A stretch of 51,001 bases of DNA, the filler included, from Ginglymostoma cirratum (Eukaryota), in the NCBI GenBank assembly GCA_024137785.1. It is 2 parts of 2 records of this genome, joined end to end, with 100 filler letters (N's around TTAATTAATTAA, not from the genome) between each part and the next. Parts side by side here need not be neighbours in the genome. Positions count along the whole stretch, not along the records: positions 1 to 27,530 come from JAHRHZ010000092.1; 1 more part is not named here. One strand, given 5' to 3'. Under the pieces are notes generated by a model. It saw only the letters and a list, made by a program, of their open reading frames with translations. It searched no databases and had not been told where the DNA came from. How positions within the stretch are numbered: the stretch's first letter is position 1; the number at the start of each line of letters is the position of its first letter. Positions 1,222 through 40,279 of this stretch are shown in pieces. Both the position numbers and the translations under genes were made by a program.

Positions 1222-2575
1222 CACAGTGTGAGACCCTTTTCAGAAAACATCACAAGACAAAGTGTTTTTTTAAACCAGTCTTGCAATTGGCCACTGTTGA
1301 CTTGGATGATTGTTTATTTCATCTCATTAATTTTAATCCAATGCCACATTAAAAAGGTAATAATTATAAAGCAGAAAAGGAGACCTATAAGTCAATAAAA
1401 CTTCTAAAGACACAATCAACTAATTTCACTCACCTCTCTTCTTTCTGCATAGCCTTGTAAATATTTTTCAATAAATCATTTTTATATCCAGTTTCCATTA
1501 AGCAAGCTTCCACCACAACACATTCCATATCAATTCAATGTCCTCCATGAGAAATGACTCTGCTAGGTCTTTTACCAATTAGCGCAAAATCAGTATCATT
1601 GGTCACCGGCCATTCTGCCACAGTAAGCTTTCTGATTGTTTACGCAAGATCTTAATTAGTTTTGAAAATGTTGATTAAACCCCCAGTTGTCCCTTACTGA
1701 TCTGTAGAGAATTATAGCAAATTTCAGGTCCACACAGTTGTCTCATGTCTGGTACCATTTTAGTAAATCATTACTGTTCCATATCCAAGGCTTGAAAAAC
1801 AATCTAATGCATTTTGTTCAAAAGTGAACACATTTCATCAGCTGTGACCCAACCACTGATTCCTAAAAGTTGATCAAAATTTATTTTCTTAACTCATCTT
1901 AAATCCTCAATGAGTGACTTTCTGCACCCTCAATTCTTCCTTCCAAATATTTTGAGTATTTACTAACATCATTGTCCCTCCATCCCAGTCCCACGTTCTC
2001 TTGAACTTGCAATAGTACATACAAATTAGTCAATTCAAACTCTTGTATACTAGGCAGTTATCATCTATCAATTTCTACCTGGTCATTGACGCCTTTTTAA
2101 GAAATAATGGAAATTCCAGAAAGATTTGGGAACCTCACTCCAGCTATGATTAGCATTATTTTTATGTATTGGCATCAGCAACATTAAACTACAGGTGTTG
2201 AGTTGATGAGAAATGATTCGTCACAGTTTCTTGACACAACCTTACACAGTTGGATCATAAATTCTGAACCTTTAATTCTCCAGATACGCCTAAATAAGGT
2301 CATTTGTTCAATTGACTATAGTATTGCATTCATTCATTCTTTCAATGTTTACATTTTTCTTTCCATCTGTCTCTTTGCATTTCTGGCTGTCCACATTGAT
2401 CTTCATCTACCGCCGCCCAGACTTGCCCCAACATTTAGTTATTTTGTTTGCTGCTTCTTTAATGTAACAATTATTTGTCTTCCTGATTTCCTGACTTCCT
2501 CTCTTGCTTCCAACTGAAAAGAGCAAACTGTTTCACAGTTTCAATGCTTCTTGAGACTAAAAAGCAATAAGTTAC

Positions 2576-2627
2576 TCAAGACTGTTAACTTATTGCCATC
2601 ACCAATATGTGATAGTTGGGTACTTCC
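2576..2627 (-). pseudogene. TRBJ: Degenerate TCR beta J (GSTQLSHIGDGNKLTVL)
   Basis: IGDG..KLTVL, phase-1 donor A|GTAACT; nonamer-like TACAAAACA 2647-2655 but no CAC heptamer. Confidence 0.7.
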
Positions 2628-2885
2628 TTCTCCTACATCATTGTGTTACAAAACAAATAATCTAGTGTTCTGCCAATTTGAACAGCATCTCCCATTATTA
2701 TGTGACTTTAGTCTTCTTGAAGTTGACTTCAAACATTCTCAATACCATCTATCCACCTGTCGACCTGTTAGCCCTGCTAAATCTAGAATATTTTTCTCAA
2801 AATTCTTCATAACGTTTAATTTAATTCTACACTCAAGATTAATCAGGTGATCTTGGTTCCATCACACAAAAAAAGCCCAACTCGC

Positions 2886-4670: not shown

Positions 4671-5238
4671 TTCAGGTGCAGGCATTGTTAATCTTTGTTA
4701 TGTTTAAAAATTTATCCAATGTCTCTACAGTGGTACAGGTGACTAAAATTACAATATTTAAAAGACATTTAGACAGGTACATGGGTAGGAAGGGTTTCGT
4801 GGGATATGGGCCAAATGTAGGTAAATAGAACTAGTTCAATTGAGGAAATCTGGTTGGCATGGACAAGTTGGGCCAAAGGTCTATTTCTACGCTGTTTGAC
4901 TCTATGACTTTAAATATCGTATATTTACTGGAACTGCACATAGTCCAGTTGAATATGAAACTTTTTGTTGTATTGCCTTACATTCTTGTTCAACTCTCAG
5001 AGGCCAAATTCAATAATTCTGTCGTGCCAATGTTATTTCTATTTCTGTTTATTTTAGGGATCTTCAGTTATGTTGTCTCACAAGTTCCTTTCCTCCAGGG
5101 CAATGAATTAACACATCTTCCACTGTAAAAGTCATACTTATTTTACCAAGTTCCTGTATTTCAACTCCCTCAACCAAACCCTGCGTAAAGTTACGAATTT
5201 AAAAAACTTTCTCGAGCACAGGGAATGTAATCACTTAC

Positions 5239-5288
5239 CAAAAACGACCAGCTTCGTCCCATTTCCAAAATAAGCTTCTTTATTGAAG
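5239..5288 (-). CDS. TRBJ: TCR beta J segment, apparently functional (FNKEAYFGNGTKLVVF)
   Basis: EAYFGNGTKL; donor G|GTAAGT; 12-RSS: CACAGCA 5289-5295, 12 nt, AGCAAAACC 5308-5316. Confidence 0.95.
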
Positions 5289-5829
5289 CACAGCAGTACC
5301 AAGCTGTAGCAAAACCACACTCAAGTCTGTGTTGCTAAGTTTGTCCTGTTGAAGTTCCTAATATAGTTCCTGATTGGCCTTCGGGGACATAGGATAAGTG
5401 GTGACAATTCGCTGTTTAGATCCTCTTTCACTATTCAATTACATCATGGTTTATTGGTATCTCAAGTCCATTACCCCACCAGGATTATTTAACCCTTAAT
5501 ATCTTTGCCTAACAAACATTTACTAATTTTTTAGTTGAGATATTAAGTAGAGAGTCAATCTCAGGAGACTTATTGGAGCGATAGAATTCCAAATTTTCAC
5601 ATGCTTCCTCAAAATACCCTGTCTCTAATTTAAGATGCTGCAAACTCGTCCTTCCCTCTCCATCTAACTGAACAAAGGAATCAGTATCTTTGTATATAGG
5701 TTCTCAAGTTCTTTAATCAACTTAACACATTGATTATATCACCGCTTATTGTTTTATATATTTACTTAGACAATGCAACCAGTTCTGGTCATGTCACCCT
5801 CTTCATACAATAATATGCTTATTATCTTG

Positions 5830-6180
5830 TAGGAATGAGGTTACAAGTGGCATTTTCTCTGGACTAGTTTTGCAGAGAACCACATAATGTCTTGGAAACT
5901 TAGGTTTCAATCTGACCAGAGGTGATGACAGAATTTGAATTCAACAAAATCTGGAATTGGAAGTCTAGAGATGACCTGAATCCATTGTAGTAAAACAGCA
6001 TCTGGCTCACTAATGTCCTTTTAGGGAAGGAAAACTAATCTGCCCTCCAGGCCACAGCAATGTAGTTGACTCTTAAGTGAGTTACAGCCCTTACAGGGCT
6101 AGCAAGTCATCCAGGTACAAGGGCAAGTTGTTATTAGCAGTAAATGGTGACCTAGTAAGTCAGGTCGCAGGCCCCATCAA
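5830..6180 (+). mobile_element. SINE copy (DeuSINE/SacSINE1-like)
   Basis: GAATTTGAATTCAA..CTGGCTCACTAATGTCCTTT..CACAGCAATGTAGTTGACTCTTAA core, repeated elsewhere in the window. Confidence 0.55.
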
Positions 6181-6240
6181 TGTTTTTTTTCTAAAATCTT
6201 GACTTTACCCCTCATCATTTTTAATTGCATATTGTCATGG

Positions 6241-6386
6241 ATTCTGATCAATACTAGAACTGAAATAAATGTAGACTGACCTAAGACTGTTAACTTAGTC
6301 CCAGCACCAATTCACTTTGGCGCTGGGACTAAGTTAACAGTCTTAGGTCAGTCTACATTTATTTCAGTTCTGGTATTGATCAGAAT
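6241..6386. repeat. 70-bp inverted repeat with 6-nt loop, built from a J segment plus its intron
   Basis: Arms 6241-6310 and 6317-6386 are reverse complements with 2 mismatches; loop TTCACT. Confidence 0.95.
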
Positions 6387-6400
6387 GTTCACCTTATGTT
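6281..6400 (-). pseudogene. TRBJ: TCR beta J pseudogene disrupted by inverted duplication (reconstructs to T*GELHFGAGTKLTVL)
   Basis: GAGTKLTVL with donor G|GTCAGT on both strands; residual 12-RSS CACTATG 6401-6407, 12 nt, GCAAAAGTA 6420-6428. Confidence 0.85.
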
Positions 6401-6528
6401 CACTATGTTCACTTTACAGGCAAAAGTAAAAGAAACAAATATTGAATTAAAGAGAATGTGGAAGACTCGGCACATTAATCATCAATAAAGTATTAACAGA
6501 CACACTGGAAAAAAAATAGCTGACTTAC

Positions 6529-6576
6529 CAAGAACTGTTAATTTGGTGCCTGGCCCGAAATAATTGACTGCTGTAG
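6529..6576 (-). CDS. TRBJ: TCR beta J segment, apparently functional (TAVNYFGPGTKLTVL)
   Basis: YFGPGTKLTVL; donor G|GTAAGT; CACAGTG 6577-6583, 12 nt, ACAGACAGC 6596-6604. Confidence 0.93.
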
Positions 6577-7171
6577 CACAGTGACACTACCTGTCACAGA
6601 CAGCCTCAAAACAGTGTCACTTTTTAGTCTGCGTGGTGCCATTCTAAATAAATGACAGGGGTATCAACTGCATGAATCCCATTCTAATCTGCATGATTCC
6701 AGGTTAATCGATCGATGCTGCAATTACCTGTAAGTCATTGTTCTAATCTATTGGTTCCATGTTTACCTCCATGTTGATCTCTGCTGATCATTTTATTATC
6801 AACGGATTCTGAATGAGTGGGTACAATTATAATTTAATTGTATGGCTTGTTAAGCCTAAATTAAGATTACGTAGTTGTATTCTTGTATTGAACTGATTAC
6901 AACAATCACCCCCAACTATGCTGACCTTGCCCCAGGATGGACCAGACATCCTTCCCTTGTAAATCAGAAGAGAGAGTCAATGCCAACCCAGAAATTGAAT
7001 ATTGCTCCAAAGTGATAAATAGATGTTGTCATGGCATTACATTGAGTGTGTTTCTCAAGGTTATTGGCGCATTTCGAACAGTCTCTGACGTTTTAAAAAG
7101 TCCAGATCTGAAGAGGACTGTGAATGTATATCGCTAGGTAAGTATTTAGAGGCAGAAAGCCCATTTCTTAC

Positions 7172-7220
7172 CTGATACCGTTAATTTGGTGCCTGTCCCA
7201 AAGTAAGTTATTGACTCTAT
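7172..7220 (-). CDS. TRBJ: TCR beta J segment with non-canonical RSS (IESITYFGTGTKLTVS)
   Basis: YFGTGTKLTV; donor G|GTAAGA; heptamer CACATCA 7221-7227; best nonamer GCCAACACC 7242-7250 lies 14 nt away. Confidence 0.85.
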
Positions 7221-7652
7221 CACATCATCAGATCATATTAGGCCAACACCTTCGAGCAGTCATCTAAAAGTGGACTGTTGGCGCAATTAACAGTTACTGG
7301 TCAAGTCAAGATAGCACATAAAAGACAGTGGAACTCAAAAAAGGCTTTAAAACAGAGGAGACACATTCGAATTCCGTCAAGGAAGTTGCATCAAATGGCA
7401 ATGTAAGAAATGGCCAAGCGATTCTTTGCCAGGTTTGACAAGGAGAAAATACTGACAAGCAATGTGCTGGAGTTGGGATGAAGAGCGATCAATGTTCAGA
7501 AAAATTATGCAAAAATCGTGCATTTTGTTTCGTTAGAAGTGCCTTGCAGTTTCAATTGTCCTTTCGTGGTCCTTCACTGAAGCGCTTTAATTGAATTATG
7601 ATGACAGCTCCTTCACCTCGTTACCACTGCTCTTCTGTTGAGCTTGTTTCCA

Positions 7653-7691
7653 GGTTTTTGTACAGAGGTTGCATTGGATTTTATCATAGTG
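7653..7691 (-). promoter_or_regulatory. 3' 23-RSS of D-beta
   Basis: Minus strand: CACTATG, 23 nt, perfect ACAAAAACC. Confidence 0.95.
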
Positions 7692-7705
7692 GCCCCTGCT
7701 GTCCC
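7692..7705 (-). CDS. TRBD: TCR beta D segment GGGACAGCAGGGGC
   Basis: Flanked by 5' 12-RSS and 3' 23-RSS; resembles the conserved TRBD GGGACAGGGGGC; open in all three frames (GTAG, GQQG, DSRG). Confidence 0.95.
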
Positions 7706-7733
7706 CACGGTGAAATATTCTCATACAAAAAGA
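7706..7733 (-). promoter_or_regulatory. 5' 12-RSS of D-beta
   Basis: Read on plus strand: CACGGTG, 12 nt, ACAAAAAGA. Confidence 0.95.
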
Positions 7734-7790
7734 AAGTGAGGTATGAAAGGTATTTAAGAGACTGTTAAATGGCTCTGCCGGGCTTGAGTT

Positions 7791-7815
7791 TGTGATGTCA
7801 TTTGGGATTGACGTG
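7791..7815. promoter_or_regulatory. Candidate D-beta germline promoter, CRE-like sites
   Basis: GTGATGTCA (like the TCR beta promoter decamer AGTGATGTCA) and TGACGT about 60-80 nt upstream of the D 12-RSS. Confidence 0.45.
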
Positions 7816-8449: not shown

Positions 8450-8690
8450 ACAATAGTTGCTGGAAAATCTCAGCAATCTGGCAGCATCTGTGAAGAAAAA
8501 ATCAGAGTTAACATTTCGGGTCCGGTGACTCTTCCTCAGAACTGCAAGGCAGAGTTCAGAGGAAGGGTCACCGGACTCAAAACGTTTACTCTGATTTTTT
8601 TCTTCACAGATGCTGCTCAACTTACTGATCTTTTCCAACAACTTCTGTTTTTGTTCCCAATTTACAGCATCCGCAGATCTTTCGGTTTTG
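8450..8690. mobile_element. Penelope-derived palindromic short element, inserted in a SINE
   Basis: Inverted arms GTTGCTGGAAAATCTCAG..TCAGAACT and AGTTCAGAGGAAGGGTC..TTCCAACAAC; same family at about 13250, 17630, 23270, 41275 and 42790. Confidence 0.7.
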
Positions 8691-15815: not shown

Positions 15816-15854
15816 GGTTTATGAACGTAAAATTCACTTGCTTGCACCTCTGTG
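15816..15854 (-). promoter_or_regulatory. 23-RSS of TRBV
   Basis: Minus strand: CACAGAG, 23 nt, TCATAAACC. Confidence 0.93.
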
Positions 15855-16161
15855 ACGCTACTGGCAGCACAGTAATATGTCCCTTCATCCTCTGCATTTG
15901 CCCCAGTTATGTTCAAGTTTATGTTTTGCTTATCATTTCTTATCACTTGGTACCGATCGGATACGCCTTTCTCTTTCTCTATTTTGCTTTCATAGATGAA
16001 TGAGCGGAAAAGCATTTGCAGTCCTCCACCTTTCGTTTGTTGGTACCAATACATGTACTCTAACGACTGACTTTGTCGGCAGTTCAAGCTCATGCTTTTT
16101 CCCTGTTCAACAGATGGTTGAGTTGGCGATTGGAAGATCCGGTGCTCCTGAGATATCGCAT
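15855..16161 (-). CDS. TRBV: TCR beta V exon, intact
   Basis: IFQSP..G.SMSLNCRQ..YMYWYQQ..G.GLQ..DRY..LNITGANAEDEGTYYCAASS; acceptor TTACGCAG in phase 1; followed by 23-RSS. Confidence 0.95.
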
Positions 16162-20039: not shown

Positions 20040-21500
20040 TATTCATTCATAAATGTGGACATCATTACCTAGGCCTGCGTTTATTTCCCATCCCTTGATG
20101 CCTCTGAAGATGGTAAACTGTCTTTTTGAATGATTAAAGTCTGTTTGCTGTAGGTAAATGCAAAATGCCGTTGGAGGAATGGGGTGGCATTTTAAAGATT
20201 TTGACCCAGGGGCACTGAACGAGCGGTGATTTATTTTCAAATCATGATGGTGAGTGATTTAGAGTGCAACTTGCAGGTGATGGTGTTCCCATATCTCTCC
20301 TGTCCTTCTTCCAGTTGGTAACAGTCATAGATTTGGAAGTTGCTGTTTATGGCACTTTGATGAATCTTTATATTGCACCTTTTAATTGGCACACACTGCT
20401 GCTGCTGGATGTCAATAGTGAAGGGTTTTTTTTGTGATAACAAGGTGTGGAGCTGGATGAACGCAGCATGCCAAGCAGCATCATAGGAGCAGAAAAGCTT
20501 GACGTTTCGGGCCTAGATGTTTTTGGTGCCAATCAAGTGAACCACTTTGTATACCAAACTTCCTTTATTCTTTATTCATTAATGGGATGAGGGCGTTTTG
20601 CAGGTTCATCCATCCAGACAAATGGGGAGTATTCCATTATACTCCTGACTCGTGCCTTATAGTTGGTGGACCGGATTTACAGAGTCAGGAGGTGAATTAC
20701 TTGCTGTAGGATTCCTAGCCTTCAACATTCTCTTGTAGTCACATACTCGTGTTTCTAGTCCAGTTCAGTTTCTGGCCCTTGGTAAACCCGAGGATGTTGA
20801 TAGTGGGGGCTTCAGTGATAGTAATGTCATTGAATATCAAGGGGTGATGATTAGATTCTCTCTTTTTGGAGATAAACATTGCCTCACACTCGTGAGATGC
20901 CAATGTTACTTGCCACTCATCAAACCTAAGCAAGGCCTTTCTCCATGTGGTTTTGAATCTGAGGAGTCGGGAATGGCGCTGAACTTTGTGCAATCATCAA
21001 CGAATAACCTCACTTCTGACTTTATGATGGAAGCAGCAGAAGAAGGTTGGGTGTAGGGTATTACTCTGTGGAACTCCTGCAGAGATGTCCAGGAGCTGAG
21101 ATTTCTGACCTCCAACAACCACAATCATATTCCTGTGTGCAAGGTATGACTCCAACCAATGGAAAGTTTTCGACCTAATTCCCAATGACTAGACCTTTGC
21201 AAGGTCTCTGTGATGCCACTGTTGGACAATTGCAGTCTTGATGTCAGAGATAATAGGAACTGCAGATGCTGGAGAATCTGAGATAACAAGGTGTGGAGCT
21301 GGATGAACACAGCAGGCCAAGCAGCATCATAGGAGCAGGAAAGCATTTCTGATGAAGGGTCTAGGCCTGAAACATCAAGCTTTCCTGCTCCTATGATGCT
21401 GCTTGGCCTGCTGTGTTCATCCAGCTCTACACCTTGTTATCTGCAGCCTTGATGTCTTGAGGCAGTCACTGTCACTTCCCCTGTGGAATTCTGAGCTTTT
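20040..21500 (-). mobile_element. Degenerate non-LTR LINE (CR1/L2 clade) RT
   Basis: MGIRSKTFHWLESYL..VVVGGQ.S..ISAGVPQ and RLFVDD fragments. Confidence 0.8.
21246..21441. mobile_element. Penelope-derived palindromic insertion with 15-bp target-site duplication
   Basis: Inverted arms matching Penelope terminal repeats; TGCAGTCTTGATGTC 21231-21245 and TGCAGCCTTGATGTC 21442-21456. Confidence 0.85.
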
Positions 21501-25682: not shown

Positions 25683-27795
25683 GAGGTAACAAGCGTGGGG
25701 CTGGATGAACACAGCAGGTCAAGCAGCATCATAGGAGCAGGAAATCTTGACGTTTTGGGCCTAGACCCTTCATCAGAAATGGGGGAGGGGAAGAGGGTTC
25801 TGAAATAAATAGGGAGAGAGGGGGAGGCGGATAGAGGATGGATAGAGGAGAGGATAGGTGGAGAGGAGGCAGACAAGTCGAAGAAGCGGGGATGGAGCTA
25901 GTAAAGGTGAGTGTAGGTGGGGGGGGGGTGGGTAGGGAGGAGATAGGTCAGTCCAGGGAGGACGGACAAGTCAAGGGGGCGGGATGATGTTCGTAGATGG
26001 GAGATGGGCGTGGGGCTTGAGGTGGGAGGAGGGGATAGGTGAGAGGAGAACCAGGTTAGGAAGGTGGAGATGAGCTGGGCTGGTTTTGGGATGCGGTTGG
26101 GGGAGGGGAGATTTTGAAGCTTGTGAAATCCACATTGATACCATTGGGCTGCAGGGTTCCCAGGCTGAATATGATTTGCTGTTCCTGCAGCCTTCGGGTG
26201 GCATCACTGTGGCATTGCAGGAGGCCCAGGATGGACATGTCGTCTGAGGAATGGGAGGGAGAGTTGAAATGATTCGCAACTGGGAGGTGTAGTTGTTTGT
26301 TGCGAACTGAGCGCAGGTATTCTGCAAAGCGGTCCCCAAGCCTCCGCTTGGTTTCCCTGATGTAGAGGAAGCCAGAACGGGCACAGCGGATGCAGTATAT
26401 CACATTGGCAGATGTGCAGGGGAACATCTGCCTGATGTGGAAAGTCTTCTTGGGGCCTGGGATTGGGGTGAGGGAGGAGGTGTGGGGGCAGGTGTAGCAC
26501 TTCCTGCGGTTGCAGGGAAAAGTGCCGGGTGAGGTAGGGCTGGAGGGGAGTGTGGAGCGGACAAGGGAGTCGCGGAAGGAGTGGTCCCTCCGGAAGGCAG
26601 ATAAGGGTGGGGAGGGAAAGATGTCTTTGGTGGTGGGGTCTGATTGCAGATGGCGGAAGTGTCGGAGGATGATGCGTTTGATCCGGAGATTGGTGGGGTG
26701 GTACGTGAGGATGAGGGGCATTCTTTTTTGGTTATTATTGCGGGGACGGGGCATGAGGGATGTGTTACAGGAAATGCGGGACACATGGTCGAGGGCGTTC
26801 TCGACCACTGTGGGGGGGATGTTGCGGTCCTTGAAGAATGAGGACATTTGAGATGTGCAGGAGTGGAATGTCTCATCCTGGGAGCAGATGCGGCGGAGGC
26901 GAAGGAATTGGGAATAGGGGATGGCATTTTTGCAGGAAGGTGGGTGGGAGGAGGTGTATTCCAGGTAGCTGTGAGAGTCAGTGGGCTTGAAATGGACATC
27001 GGTTTCTAGGTGGTTACCCGAGATGGAGACAGAGAGGTCCAGGAAGGGGAGAGAGAGGTGTTAGAGATGGTCCAGGTGAACTTAAGGTTGGGGTGGAAGG
27101 TGTTGGTGAAGTGGATGAACTGTTCAAGCTCCTCGTGGGAGCACGAGGTGGCGCCGATGCAGTCATCAATGTAACGGAGGAAGAGGTGGGGTTTAGGGCC
27201 AGTGTAGGTACGGAAGAGGGATTGTTCCACGTAACCTACAAAGAGGCAGGCATAGCTTGGAACCATGTGGGTACCCATGGCCACCCCCTTTGTCTGTAGG
27301 AAGTGGGAGGAATTGAAAGAGAAGTTGTTGAGGGTGAGGATGAGTTCGGCTAAGCGGATGAGGGTGTCGGTGGAGGGGGATTGGTCAGTTCTGCGGGACA
27401 GGAAGAAGCGGAGGGCCTTTAGGCCATCTGCATGAGGAATACAGGTGTATAGGGACTGGACGTCCATAGTAAAAATGAGGTGTTGGGGACCGGGGAATTG
27501 GAAGTTCTGGAGGAGGTGGAGGGCGTGGGTNNNNNNNNNNNNNNNNNNNNNNNNNNNNNNNNNNNNNNNNNNNNTTAATTAATTAANNNNNNNNNNNNNN
27601 NNNNNNNNNNNNNNNNNNNNNNNNNNNNNNTTAGGAGAGGCTTCGCAGTGGGGTTAAAATTGTTTCAGAGATAGTAGGAACTGCAGATGCTGGTGAATCC
27701 GAGATAACAAGGTGTAGAGCTGGATGAACACAGCAGGCCAAGCAGCATCAGAGGAGCAGGAAGGCTGACGTTTCAGGCCTAGACCCTTCTTCAGT
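25683..27795 (-). mobile_element. Penelope-like retroelement (RT plus GIY-YIG endonuclease), frameshifted, spanning the gap
   Basis: DVQSLYT.IP..GVAMG..FLRYIDD (27006-27467); NVIYCIRC..LYI.ET.R.L..RF.E..NGIN (26056-26847); same terminal repeat at 25683-25776 and 27667-27795. Confidence 0.93.
27531..27630. other. Assembly gap with artificial TTAATTAATTAA spacer
   Basis: 44 N, TTAATTAATTAA (27575-27586), 44 N. Confidence 0.97.
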
Positions 27796-39637: not shown

Positions 39638-39746
39638 GTACACAAACCAAAACTTGTCTGATAAAAAAAAAAGAGTAAAAACTGTCGAGAGTTCTGCTTC
39701 GAATCCACGCTTATATATGTGTATGTTTCTTTTTTGTTTCTGACAG

Positions 39747-40067
39747 CTACCAACGAAATCCCTTTCTCTGCGACACAATTCCCCACGTGCCTGACCGCAC
39801 TGGAAGATACAAATGTGTCCATGTGTTGTTCCATTCCGCCATTCGATAATAACCCATCGGTGGACGTTTACTGGCGGAGAGGCGACAAGGACAATGCTTT
39901 GAACCTGACAGCAGACAATAGGAAACTAATGTTCCCATTCAAACATGGATCTACTGAGTTCCAACTGCTGAATGTACATTTCCAGGACTCCGGAATCTAT
40001 TATTGCAGCATTAAGGCCGCGGGCAGGAAGATTTTCAATGGAACTGGGATGAGGCTGATCGTGCACG
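39747..40067 (+). CDS. Germline-joined VJ-type Ig domain exon (NCR3/NKp30- or SIRP-like)
   Basis: TQFP..VSMCC..VYWRR..FQLLNV.FQDSGIYYC..IFNGTGMRLIVH in one 321-nt phase 1-1 exon; donor G|GTAAGT; no RSS. Confidence 0.93.
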
Positions 40068-40279
40068 GTAAGTCCCCCTGAACTATTAATGGGTCAGTGT
40101 AAAGTTCCACAGCTATGAAAGGATATGTCACAGAATAAAATAACAGAAACTAGTGTTCGTTGCTGAGATCTTTTTGCGCTTGCCGGGCCCCTGCTATGTA
40201 TCGTAAATCAGTTAGTGTAATTCAAAAAGCTGACTTTTCTGTTCGTCAATGCTCTCGAAACGAGCACAACCTATTTAAA

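What the first reader, a model, noticed from the sequence alone, without database searches (positions are those of the whole stretch)
6241..6428. A J-beta segment folded back into a 70-bp palindrome
Seen: the J 3' half, donor and 40 nt of intron occur on both strands (68/70 match), while the J 5' end and a 12-RSS remain at 6387-6428. Removing the inserted arm and reinverting the 6-nt loop restores ACA TAA GGT GAA CTT CAC TTT GGT GCT.. (GELHFGAGTKLTVL), which contains a native GTGAA-C-TTCAC micro-hairpin right at the breakpoint. Inference: a template-switch duplication, or repair of a break 14-20 nt from the RSS, conceivably germline RAG activity as known for shark germline-joined Ig genes. The hairpin sits in the intron of transcripts using upstream Js and could extrude as a cruciform.
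Basis: partly seen in the sequence, partly recalled or inferred. Interest (0 to 1): 0.7.

Follow-up and report, generated by a model that had tools for sequence, protein, structure and literature searches.

The report
Ancient hairpin scar in shark TRBJ
In a shark's T-cell-receptor beta locus one joining (J) gene piece is broken by a mirror-image copy of itself that makes a 70-base inverted repeat; a related species carries the same structure, so it is an inherited change, likely tens of millions of years old, likely made by a DNA-copying template switch, and likely a dead gene piece with no function.

Summary
Confirmed. Arms 6241-6310/6317-6386 match 68/70 around a 6-nt loop, inside a minus-strand V-D-J-C cluster whose C exon matches shark TCR-beta chains. 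It is not an artefact: contigs of a related species (organism B, two samples, about 8% diverged) carry both arms with the same junctions, so the event predates the split, roughly 40-70 My on a borrowed shark clock. Re-inverting the loop gives a normal-length FGxG J; all three frames through the hairpin are now closed, so it is a pseudogene. The structure fits one type 1-3-4-2 template switch, with both switch points in a native 8-bp inverted repeat (7/8 in this species, 8/8 in B). The breakpoint is 14 nt from the heptamer, not at it, and the RSS is retained, so it fails the test for a RAG germline joint. RAG is not excluded: a cryptic CAC with a 23-nt spacer sits 3 nt from the junction, and B's neighbouring J has a 15-nt deletion ending at its heptamer. 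The arms evolve at background rate and B has lost 11 nt beside the loop: no sign of a conserved RNA. One adjacent pair of sites suggests arm-to-arm correction.

The parts
6241..6310 (-). Original arm: 3' part of the TRBJ (GAGTKLTVL), GT donor at 6279-6278 and about 39 nt of intron
   Evidence: organism B differs at 4 of 58 letters and lacks 6271 and 6298-6308
6311..6316 (+). 6-nt loop: the inverted L-H-F codon region of the J; on the sense (-) strand it puts a TGA stop in the J frame
6317..6386 (+). Inserted inverted copy of the arm (J 3' part, donor and intron on the + strand)
   Evidence: organism B differs at 9 of 70 letters
6387..6400 (-). Stranded 5' stub of the J (14 nt); 6388-6395 is the other half of the native 8-bp inverted repeat; in-frame TAA
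6390..6396 (+). Cryptic heptamer (CAC, then 3 mismatches to consensus), exactly 23 nt from the same nonamer; its predicted cut site is 3 nt from the 6386/6387 junction
   Evidence: 1 of 6 Js has CAC at this offset; CAC frequency 0.012
6401..6428 (+). 12-spacer RSS of the broken J (heptamer CACTATG, nonamer 6420-6428); heptamer unchanged in organism B
6529..6604 (-). Neighbouring J (AVNYFGPGTKLTVL) with 12-RSS at 6577; in organism B 15 nt of its 5' coding end are missing, up to the heptamer border
7172..7248 (-). Upstream J (FGTGTKLTVS) with degenerate RSS; donor of unrearranged D-J-C transcripts whose intron contains the hairpin
5239..5316 (-). Expressed J (KEAYFGNGTKLVVF), spliced to C; same J type as in TCR-beta proteins of other sharks
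7653..7733 (-). TRBD segment (7692-7705) with 5' 12-RSS and 3' 23-RSS
15816..16161 (-). TRBV exon ending YYCAASS, with 23-RSS at 15854

Best explanation
A shark TRBJ segment is broken by a 76-nt inverted copy of its own 3' half that a related species shares, likely made by one germline template switch at a short native inverted repeat, and likely kept since as a neutral pseudogene. Steps: (1, inferred) the intact J had an 8-bp inverted repeat 5 nt from its coding end; (2, inferred) during replication or break repair the polymerase switched strand at that repeat, copied the loop codons plus 70 nt in reverse and returned at the centre of the repeat (four-point type 1-3-4-2/3-1-2-4; fold-back priming followed by a 6-7 nt tip deletion gives the same product); (3, shown) the RSS stayed but all three frames from the stub to the donor hold stops; (4, shown) the structure was inherited by two species now about 8% apart; (5, inferred) it has since evolved at background rate, with probably one arm-to-arm correction and, in organism B, an 11-nt deletion beside the loop.
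For: Geometry: inverted repeat with inverted spacer, the product described for types 1-3-4-2/3-1-2-4, 23% of human-chimp events (PMC5453318, passages). Of three reconstructions only the loop-reinverted one gives F-G-x-G and a pre-Phe length (19 nt) inside the 17-22 nt of five other Js. The 8-mer at 6311-6318 matches 6388-6395 at 7 of 8 here and 8 of 8 in B; chance at a fixed place 6e-4 and 2.6e-5. Repeats of 5-9 bp can prime fold-back palindromes in yeast mutants (review PMC7999016, passages). Organism B: one 4248-nt contig in each of two samples covers 6007-7789 with 141 other letters in 1721; no difference listed at 6190-6250 or 6377-6392, so both junctions are shared. Both mismatches of this species are derived changes in the right arm (B has the pairing letter). 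Neutrality: 13 of 128 arm letters differ between species against 8.2% background (P of so few or fewer 0.84). All frames closed. A second single-copy perfect palindrome (49-bp arms) occurs in the 481 kb scanned, with no RSS-like site of under 6 mismatches within about 300 nt.
Against: No outgroup with the unduplicated J was found: none of eight shark TCR-beta proteins seen uses this J, so the ancestral J is inferred; alignment to the paralog at 2606 did not separate the three reconstructions (scores 55/51/54). Which letter at 6393 is ancestral is unknown. The single-step model has no clean microhomology at its first switch; models that use the 8-bp homology need a second step. The junction lies 14 nt from a real RSS and 3 nt from a cryptic one, and B's next J is deleted up to its heptamer. 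The arms of this species are closer than expected (2 of 70 against 5.7; P 0.067). No sequence of another individual of this species covered the hairpin.
Confidence: 0.68

Rival explanations
1. Germline RAG break: RAG cut or nicked at the true 12-RSS or at the cryptic 23-spacer heptamer in a germ cell, the coding end folded back on the native repeat and was extended, and the RSS side was restored (open-and-shut or sister-templated repair).
For: RAG-like activity with hairpin intermediates is reported in shark germ cells (PMC2193156, passages). CAC at 6390 is exactly 23 nt from the nonamer, 1 of 6 Js, base frequency 0.012. In organism B the scattered gaps at 6562-6589 realign as one 15-nt deletion of J6559's coding end that stops within 0-2 nt of the heptamer border. 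By my count from depth bins, three of five larger losses (7 nt or more) in B overlap J coding parts (post hoc P about 0.01).
Against: In reported germline joints cleavage is adjacent to the RSS and the RSS is completely excised; here the RSS and 14 coding letters are intact and the palindrome axis is 14-20 nt inside. The P regions discussed there are 2 nt, not 76. The cryptic CAC is one of three tandem copies of an 8-mer (6385, 6396, 6405), so slippage can explain it. The B realignment used 12 of 26 indel rows. A palindrome of the same kind exists away from any RSS. All these coincidences were noticed after the fact.
Confidence: 0.15
2. The hairpin has been kept because it does something: an intronic double-stranded RNA in TRB transcripts (miRNA/siRNA precursor, ADAR substrate, or a mask for the leftover splice donor), or a DNA structure that tunes J usage.
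For: It lies in the intron of J7202-C transcripts; it folds at about -120 kcal/mol; template switches have produced new miRNAs, enriched in introns (10.1101/2023.04.19.537475, abstract); pair 6251/6376 changed on both sides between species; it has lasted tens of My.
Against: Arm letters change at background rate (13 of 128); B has 7 mismatches in 58 pairs and a 12-nt loss in one arm; 0 of 19 Rfam matches reach the gathering score; the stem is about twice the 35 bp and the loop shorter than the 10 nt that the paper gives as preferred for miRNA precursors.
Confidence: 0.1
3. The J was already dead and lacked the Phe codon; the 8-mer at 6388-6395 is a by-product of the duplication, not a pre-existing repeat.
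For: A direct repeat at both ends of an insertion can arise in the event itself; the stub holds an in-frame stop in both species; the paralog at 2606 also lacks Phe.
Against: These reconstructions give 12-13 nt before the G-x-G codon block and no F-G-x-G, and must invert the loop to H-F codons by chance.
Confidence: 0.06
4. Assembly or library artefact (fold-back chimera).
For: No contig or read of another individual of this species covered 6129-6570 in five runs laid; the tool warns that holes prove nothing.
Against: Organism B has both arms and both junctions in two samples, and holds the ancestral letter at both mismatches.
Confidence: 0.01

Closest known systems
Short-range template-switch mutation, type 1-3-4-2 / 3-1-2-4 (PMC5453318; passages seen)
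   Same: [quoted passage not shown]
   Different: Found in a shark antigen-receptor segment and old enough to have diverged in two species; I did not check its length against the published size range.
Fold-back priming at short inverted repeats (review PMC7999016; passages seen)
   Same: A 5-9-bp native repeat at the centre of the new palindrome.
   Different: Known cases give large chromosomal palindromes; here synthesis stopped after about 70 nt and rejoined, and the tip lacks 6-7 nt of the predicted perfect palindrome.
Germline-joined shark Ig genes (PMC2193156; passages seen)
   Same: A heritable change beside an RSS in a shark antigen-receptor locus; a hairpin intermediate is conceivable.
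   Different: No V or D is joined, the RSS is kept, the break is not at the heptamer, and the product is dead.
Template-switch creation and upkeep of RNA stems and new miRNAs (PMC8794818 and 10.1101/2023.04.19.537475; abstracts seen)
   Same: An instant perfect stem in a transcribed intron; one two-sided change of paired sites.
   Different: No evidence of processing or constraint; one species has eroded the stem.
Inverted duplications in avian IGH loci (10.64898/2026.09.05.749481; abstract and outline seen)
   Same: Inverted copies inside an antigen-receptor locus, with conversion between copies.
   Different: Those are recurrent gene-scale repeats proposed to feed somatic gene conversion; this is one 76-nt event in a J segment.

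Membership tests
TRBJ segment (pseudogene) | Lies between a D with 12/23 RSSs and a TCR-beta C exon | tested here: met
   D at 7692-7705; C exon 14 kb downstream, 48-65% identical to three shark proteins, one named TCR beta, whose family includes named TCR-beta chains
TRBJ segment (pseudogene) | 5' 12-spacer RSS, F-G-x-G motif, GT donor | tested here: met
   RSS 6401-6428; motif and donor on the + copy; Phe lost on the sense copy
TRBJ segment (functional) | Open frame from the coding end to the donor | tested here: not met
   Stops in all three frames
Four-point template switch, type 1-3-4-2/3-1-2-4 | Inverted repeat with inverted spacer relative to the ancestral sequence | tested here: met
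   Met against an inferred ancestor: only the loop-reinverted form gives a canonical J
Four-point template switch, type 1-3-4-2/3-1-2-4 | Ancestral state seen in an outgroup | not testable with these tools
   The only relative found shares the event; no eukaryotic relative genomes are offered
Fold-back priming at a short inverted repeat | Native short inverted repeat at the palindrome centre | tested here: met
   7/8 here, 8/8 in B; the repeat's prior existence is inferred
RAG germline joint | Break at the heptamer-coding border | tested here: not met
   Junction 14 nt from the true heptamer, 3 nt from a cryptic one
RAG germline joint | RSS excised and coding ends of two segments joined | tested here: not met
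   RSS retained in both species; no partner segment
miRNA precursor | Match to a known family | tested here: not met
   0 of 19 Rfam matches reach the gathering score
miRNA precursor | Discrete 22-nt products from the stem | not testable with these tools
   No small-RNA run of lymphoid tissue was identified among the 24 runs listed
miRNA precursor | Stem conserved above background | tested here: not met
   13 of 128 letters differ against 8.2% background; 12 nt lost in B
Concerted evolution of palindrome arms | Species-specific changes shared by both arms | tested here: inconclusive
   1 column shared by species, 0 shared by arm; with the adjacent doubly changed column, simulated P 0.0004-0.001 for adjacency, 0.01-0.025 anywhere, 0.07-0.12 for the single column; the pattern was chosen after seeing it

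The most novel reading that the evidence does not exclude
The TRBJ cluster of this shark lineage carries heritable scars of RAG cutting in germ cells: a fold-back at a composite 12/23 signal (one nonamer, two heptamers a helical turn apart) that killed this J, and an open-and-shut-like deletion that killed the next J in the related species. Germline RAG would then erode T-cell-receptor segments as well as join Ig genes, and the arms would have been corrected against each other over tens of millions of years.
Probability: 0.13. Interest if true: 0.72.

Novelty: new member of a known kind. Interest (0 to 1): 0.36.

Why it matters
As it most likely stands, it is a clear, dated example of a template-switch mutation destroying an antigen-receptor segment, and it shows that a near-perfect 70-bp palindrome with a 6-nt loop can persist in a vertebrate germline for a long time inside a locus that is cut and transcribed in T cells. 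If the RAG reading held, it would extend germline RAG activity in sharks from Ig joining to loss of TCR segments, and would be testable by counting scars at RSSs across shark genomes.

Tried and rejected
Artefact: rejected by organism B. Repeat element or MITE: rejected; the arm has 2 BLAST hits (itself) in 481 kb against 7-65 for the ten repeat-derived hairpins, and is single copy in G000. Inverted J with its own RSS: none apparent upstream of the + copy (sequence). Expression: no listed holder is on record as RNA. Raw RNA runs X13 and X14 gave 0 reads on 6190-7290, including the control J7202, so they are no test. Contigs of X1, X2 and X3 do not cover the hairpin; the intact J6559 is also uncovered, so this is not evidence. 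Search for the orthologous intact J in proteins: two searches gave eight shark TCR-beta-like proteins, none with this J; cluster look-up added one member, not read. Paralog alignment did not discriminate. A Pfam scan of V and C failed twice on a frame slip and was dropped. The epaulette-shark mutation-rate paper gave no per-year rate in the passages seen (PMC10587355). Earlier findings of this scan: none. Literature: ten searches, judged from listings, showed no description of this hairpin or of a shark TRBJ germline map; subscription papers and supplements were not seen and may hold one.

Full report
Observation. The arms 6241-6310 and 6317-6386 are 70 nt with a 6-nt loop and differ at two pairs, 6255/6372 and 6306/6321. 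The strand folds at about -120 kcal/mol as RNA, z about -20, with 0 of 200 shuffles as stable. A DNA search of G000 (4.36 Gb, 289 contigs) with 6100-6700 returned only the self match and the arm-to-arm match.

Setting. The first stretch of the window holds, on the minus strand, a V exon ending YYCAASS with a 23-RSS at 15854, a D at 7692-7705 with 12- and 23-RSSs, and Js with Phe codons at 7202, 6559, 5269, 2916 and 219, plus a degenerate one at 2606. A further J and a C exon lie in the next 8 kb of G000. The C exon's three hits are shark proteins at 48-65% identity; a search from the best of them returns chains named TCR beta in nurse shark and other sharks, several of which use a J like J5269. 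The locus is a shark TRB.

It is germline and old. The run search listed 24 runs, 11 holding part of 5150-7800; I laid 7 of the 24. Two samples of a second species (organism B, one study) each gave one 4248-nt contig over 6007-7789, with 141 other letters in 1721 and 74 gap letters. The letter list for X9 (40 of 88 rows shown, running in order from 6251 to 6661, so I take the hairpin region as complete but cannot prove it) has 4 changes in the left arm, 1 in the loop, 9 in the right arm, a 1-nt and an 11-nt loss in the left arm, and none at either junction. At both mismatches of this species, B has the letter that pairs. An artefact cannot produce this. Corrected divergence is 0.087. Whale shark and zebra shark show dS 0.061-0.111 at about 50 My (PMC13100897, passages), which puts the split at very roughly 40-70 My; this is a borrowed clock.

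What the event was. I compared three reconstructions. Re-inverting the loop gives F-G-x-G with 19 nt before the Phe codon; five other Js have 17-22. Dropping the loop, or treating the 8-mer as duplicated, gives 12-13 nt and no Phe. Alignment with the paralog at 2606 did not separate them (55, 51, 54). In the favoured ancestor the J carried an inverted repeat: 6311-6318 matches 6388-6395 at 7 of 8 here and 8 of 8 in B, with chance 6e-4 and 2.6e-5 at a fixed place. Both the tip of the new palindrome and the return point fall inside that repeat. The product, an inverted repeat with an inverted spacer, is the one described for four-point template switches of type 1-3-4-2/3-1-2-4, 23% of human-chimp events (PMC5453318, passages). 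Fold-back priming on a 5-9-bp repeat (PMC7999016, passages) followed by loss of 6-7 nt at the tip gives the same sequence in two steps; the data do not separate these routes.

What it does now. All three frames from the stub to the donor contain stops, so any join to the surviving RSS would be non-productive. B has also lost the G-x-G codons of the sense copy. Between species 13 of 128 arm letters differ, against 8.2% in the flanks: no constraint. B's arms pair at 51 of 58. None of 19 Rfam matches reaches its gathering score. A functional intronic stem is possible in principle (10.1101/2023.04.19.537475, abstract), but nothing here supports it.

Arm-to-arm correction. No difference between the arms is shared by the two species. 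One column (6251/6376) is shared by both arms within each species, and the next column is changed in both arms of B. Simulated independent arms give such a single column in 7-12% of runs, two such columns in 1-2.5%, and adjacent ones in 0.04-0.12%; the pattern was picked after the fact. This species has 2 mismatches where 5.7 are expected (P 0.067). One correction event, as described for template switching in RNA stems (PMC8794818, abstract), is the simplest account, but it rests on two sites.

RAG. Germline joints in shark Ig genes are cut next to the RSS, lose the RSS and show short P regions (PMC2193156, passages). Here the RSS and 14 coding letters are intact and nothing is joined, so it is not such a joint. 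In 481 kb of G000 (the window plus 43 stretches, all but the window from contig C92) I found 12 hairpins with arms of 40 nt or more and spacers up to 40 nt: ten repeat-derived, this one, and one perfect 49-bp palindrome in the V region with no RSS beside it. Such palindromes arise here without RAG. Two observations keep RAG open. A CAC at 6390 is exactly 23 nt from the same nonamer, with its predicted cut 3 nt from the junction; 1 of 6 Js has this, background 0.012, though it is one of three tandem copies of an 8-mer. And B's scattered gaps at 6562-6589 realign as one 15-nt deletion of J6559's coding end that stops at or within 2 nt of the heptamer (from 12 of 26 indel rows). 'Open-and-shut joint' is a label recalled from memory; none of the ten papers listed with 'shark' holds the term. 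A RAG route to the hairpin needs more steps than a replication switch; I give it 15%.

Verdict. Real, inherited, shared by two species, and best explained as a template-switch scar that made a TRBJ pseudogene. The mechanism class is known. Ten literature searches, judged from listings, showed no report of this case. Interest 0.36; the germline-RAG reading has about 13% and would deserve about 0.7.

Noticed in passing
window 6562-6577 (organism B, run X9): B lacks about 15 nt of J6559's 5' coding end, ending at the heptamer border, and the heptamer's first letter appears changed; the J is intact in this species. Looks like a RAG open-and-shut scar, or a chance deletion.
   Followed up: partly
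window 7197-7225 (organism B): Seven letters are missing in the bin that holds J7202's coding 5' end and heptamer (depth bins); exact place not shown.
   Followed up: no
window 7172-7735: Unrearranged D-J7202 transcript spliced to C in organism A; J7202's RSS is degenerate (3 + 5 mismatches), so it may serve mainly as a donor for germline transcripts.
   Followed up: partly
L008:986-1087 (G000:C92:736285-736386): Single-copy perfect palindrome, 49-bp arms, 4-nt spacer, beside an AT-rich repeat tract about 1.4 kb from an inverted TRBV; probably a young template switch.
   Followed up: partly
G000:C92:734862 (+), 726808 (-), 888566 (-): Only three further V exons were found in 200 kb upstream by a strict motif, one in inverted orientation; the motif will miss others.
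   Followed up: no
window 2575-2634: Degenerate J paralog (I-G-D-G, no GT at the usual place) that shares the KLTVL coding letters with the broken J.
   Followed up: partly
window 6580-6623: Short inverted repeats in and behind the RSS spacer of J6559 (a 6-bp pair inside the spacer region, a 9-bp pair reaching to 6623), seen by eye.
   Followed up: no
window 21281-21442, 8496-8600; L006, L010, L011, L027, L028, L033, L038, L045: Ten short-spacer hairpins made of interspersed repeats in 481 kb, arms 42-86 nt at 86-98%: head-to-head repeat pairs are common in this genome.
   Followed up: no
window 39665-40078 (+): Open frame in the second stretch that resembles an immunoglobulin V-type exon (by eye); not tested.
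   Followed up: no
window 26059-27530 (-): Broken open frames that resemble a retroelement reverse transcriptase (recalled resemblance); not tested.
   Followed up: no
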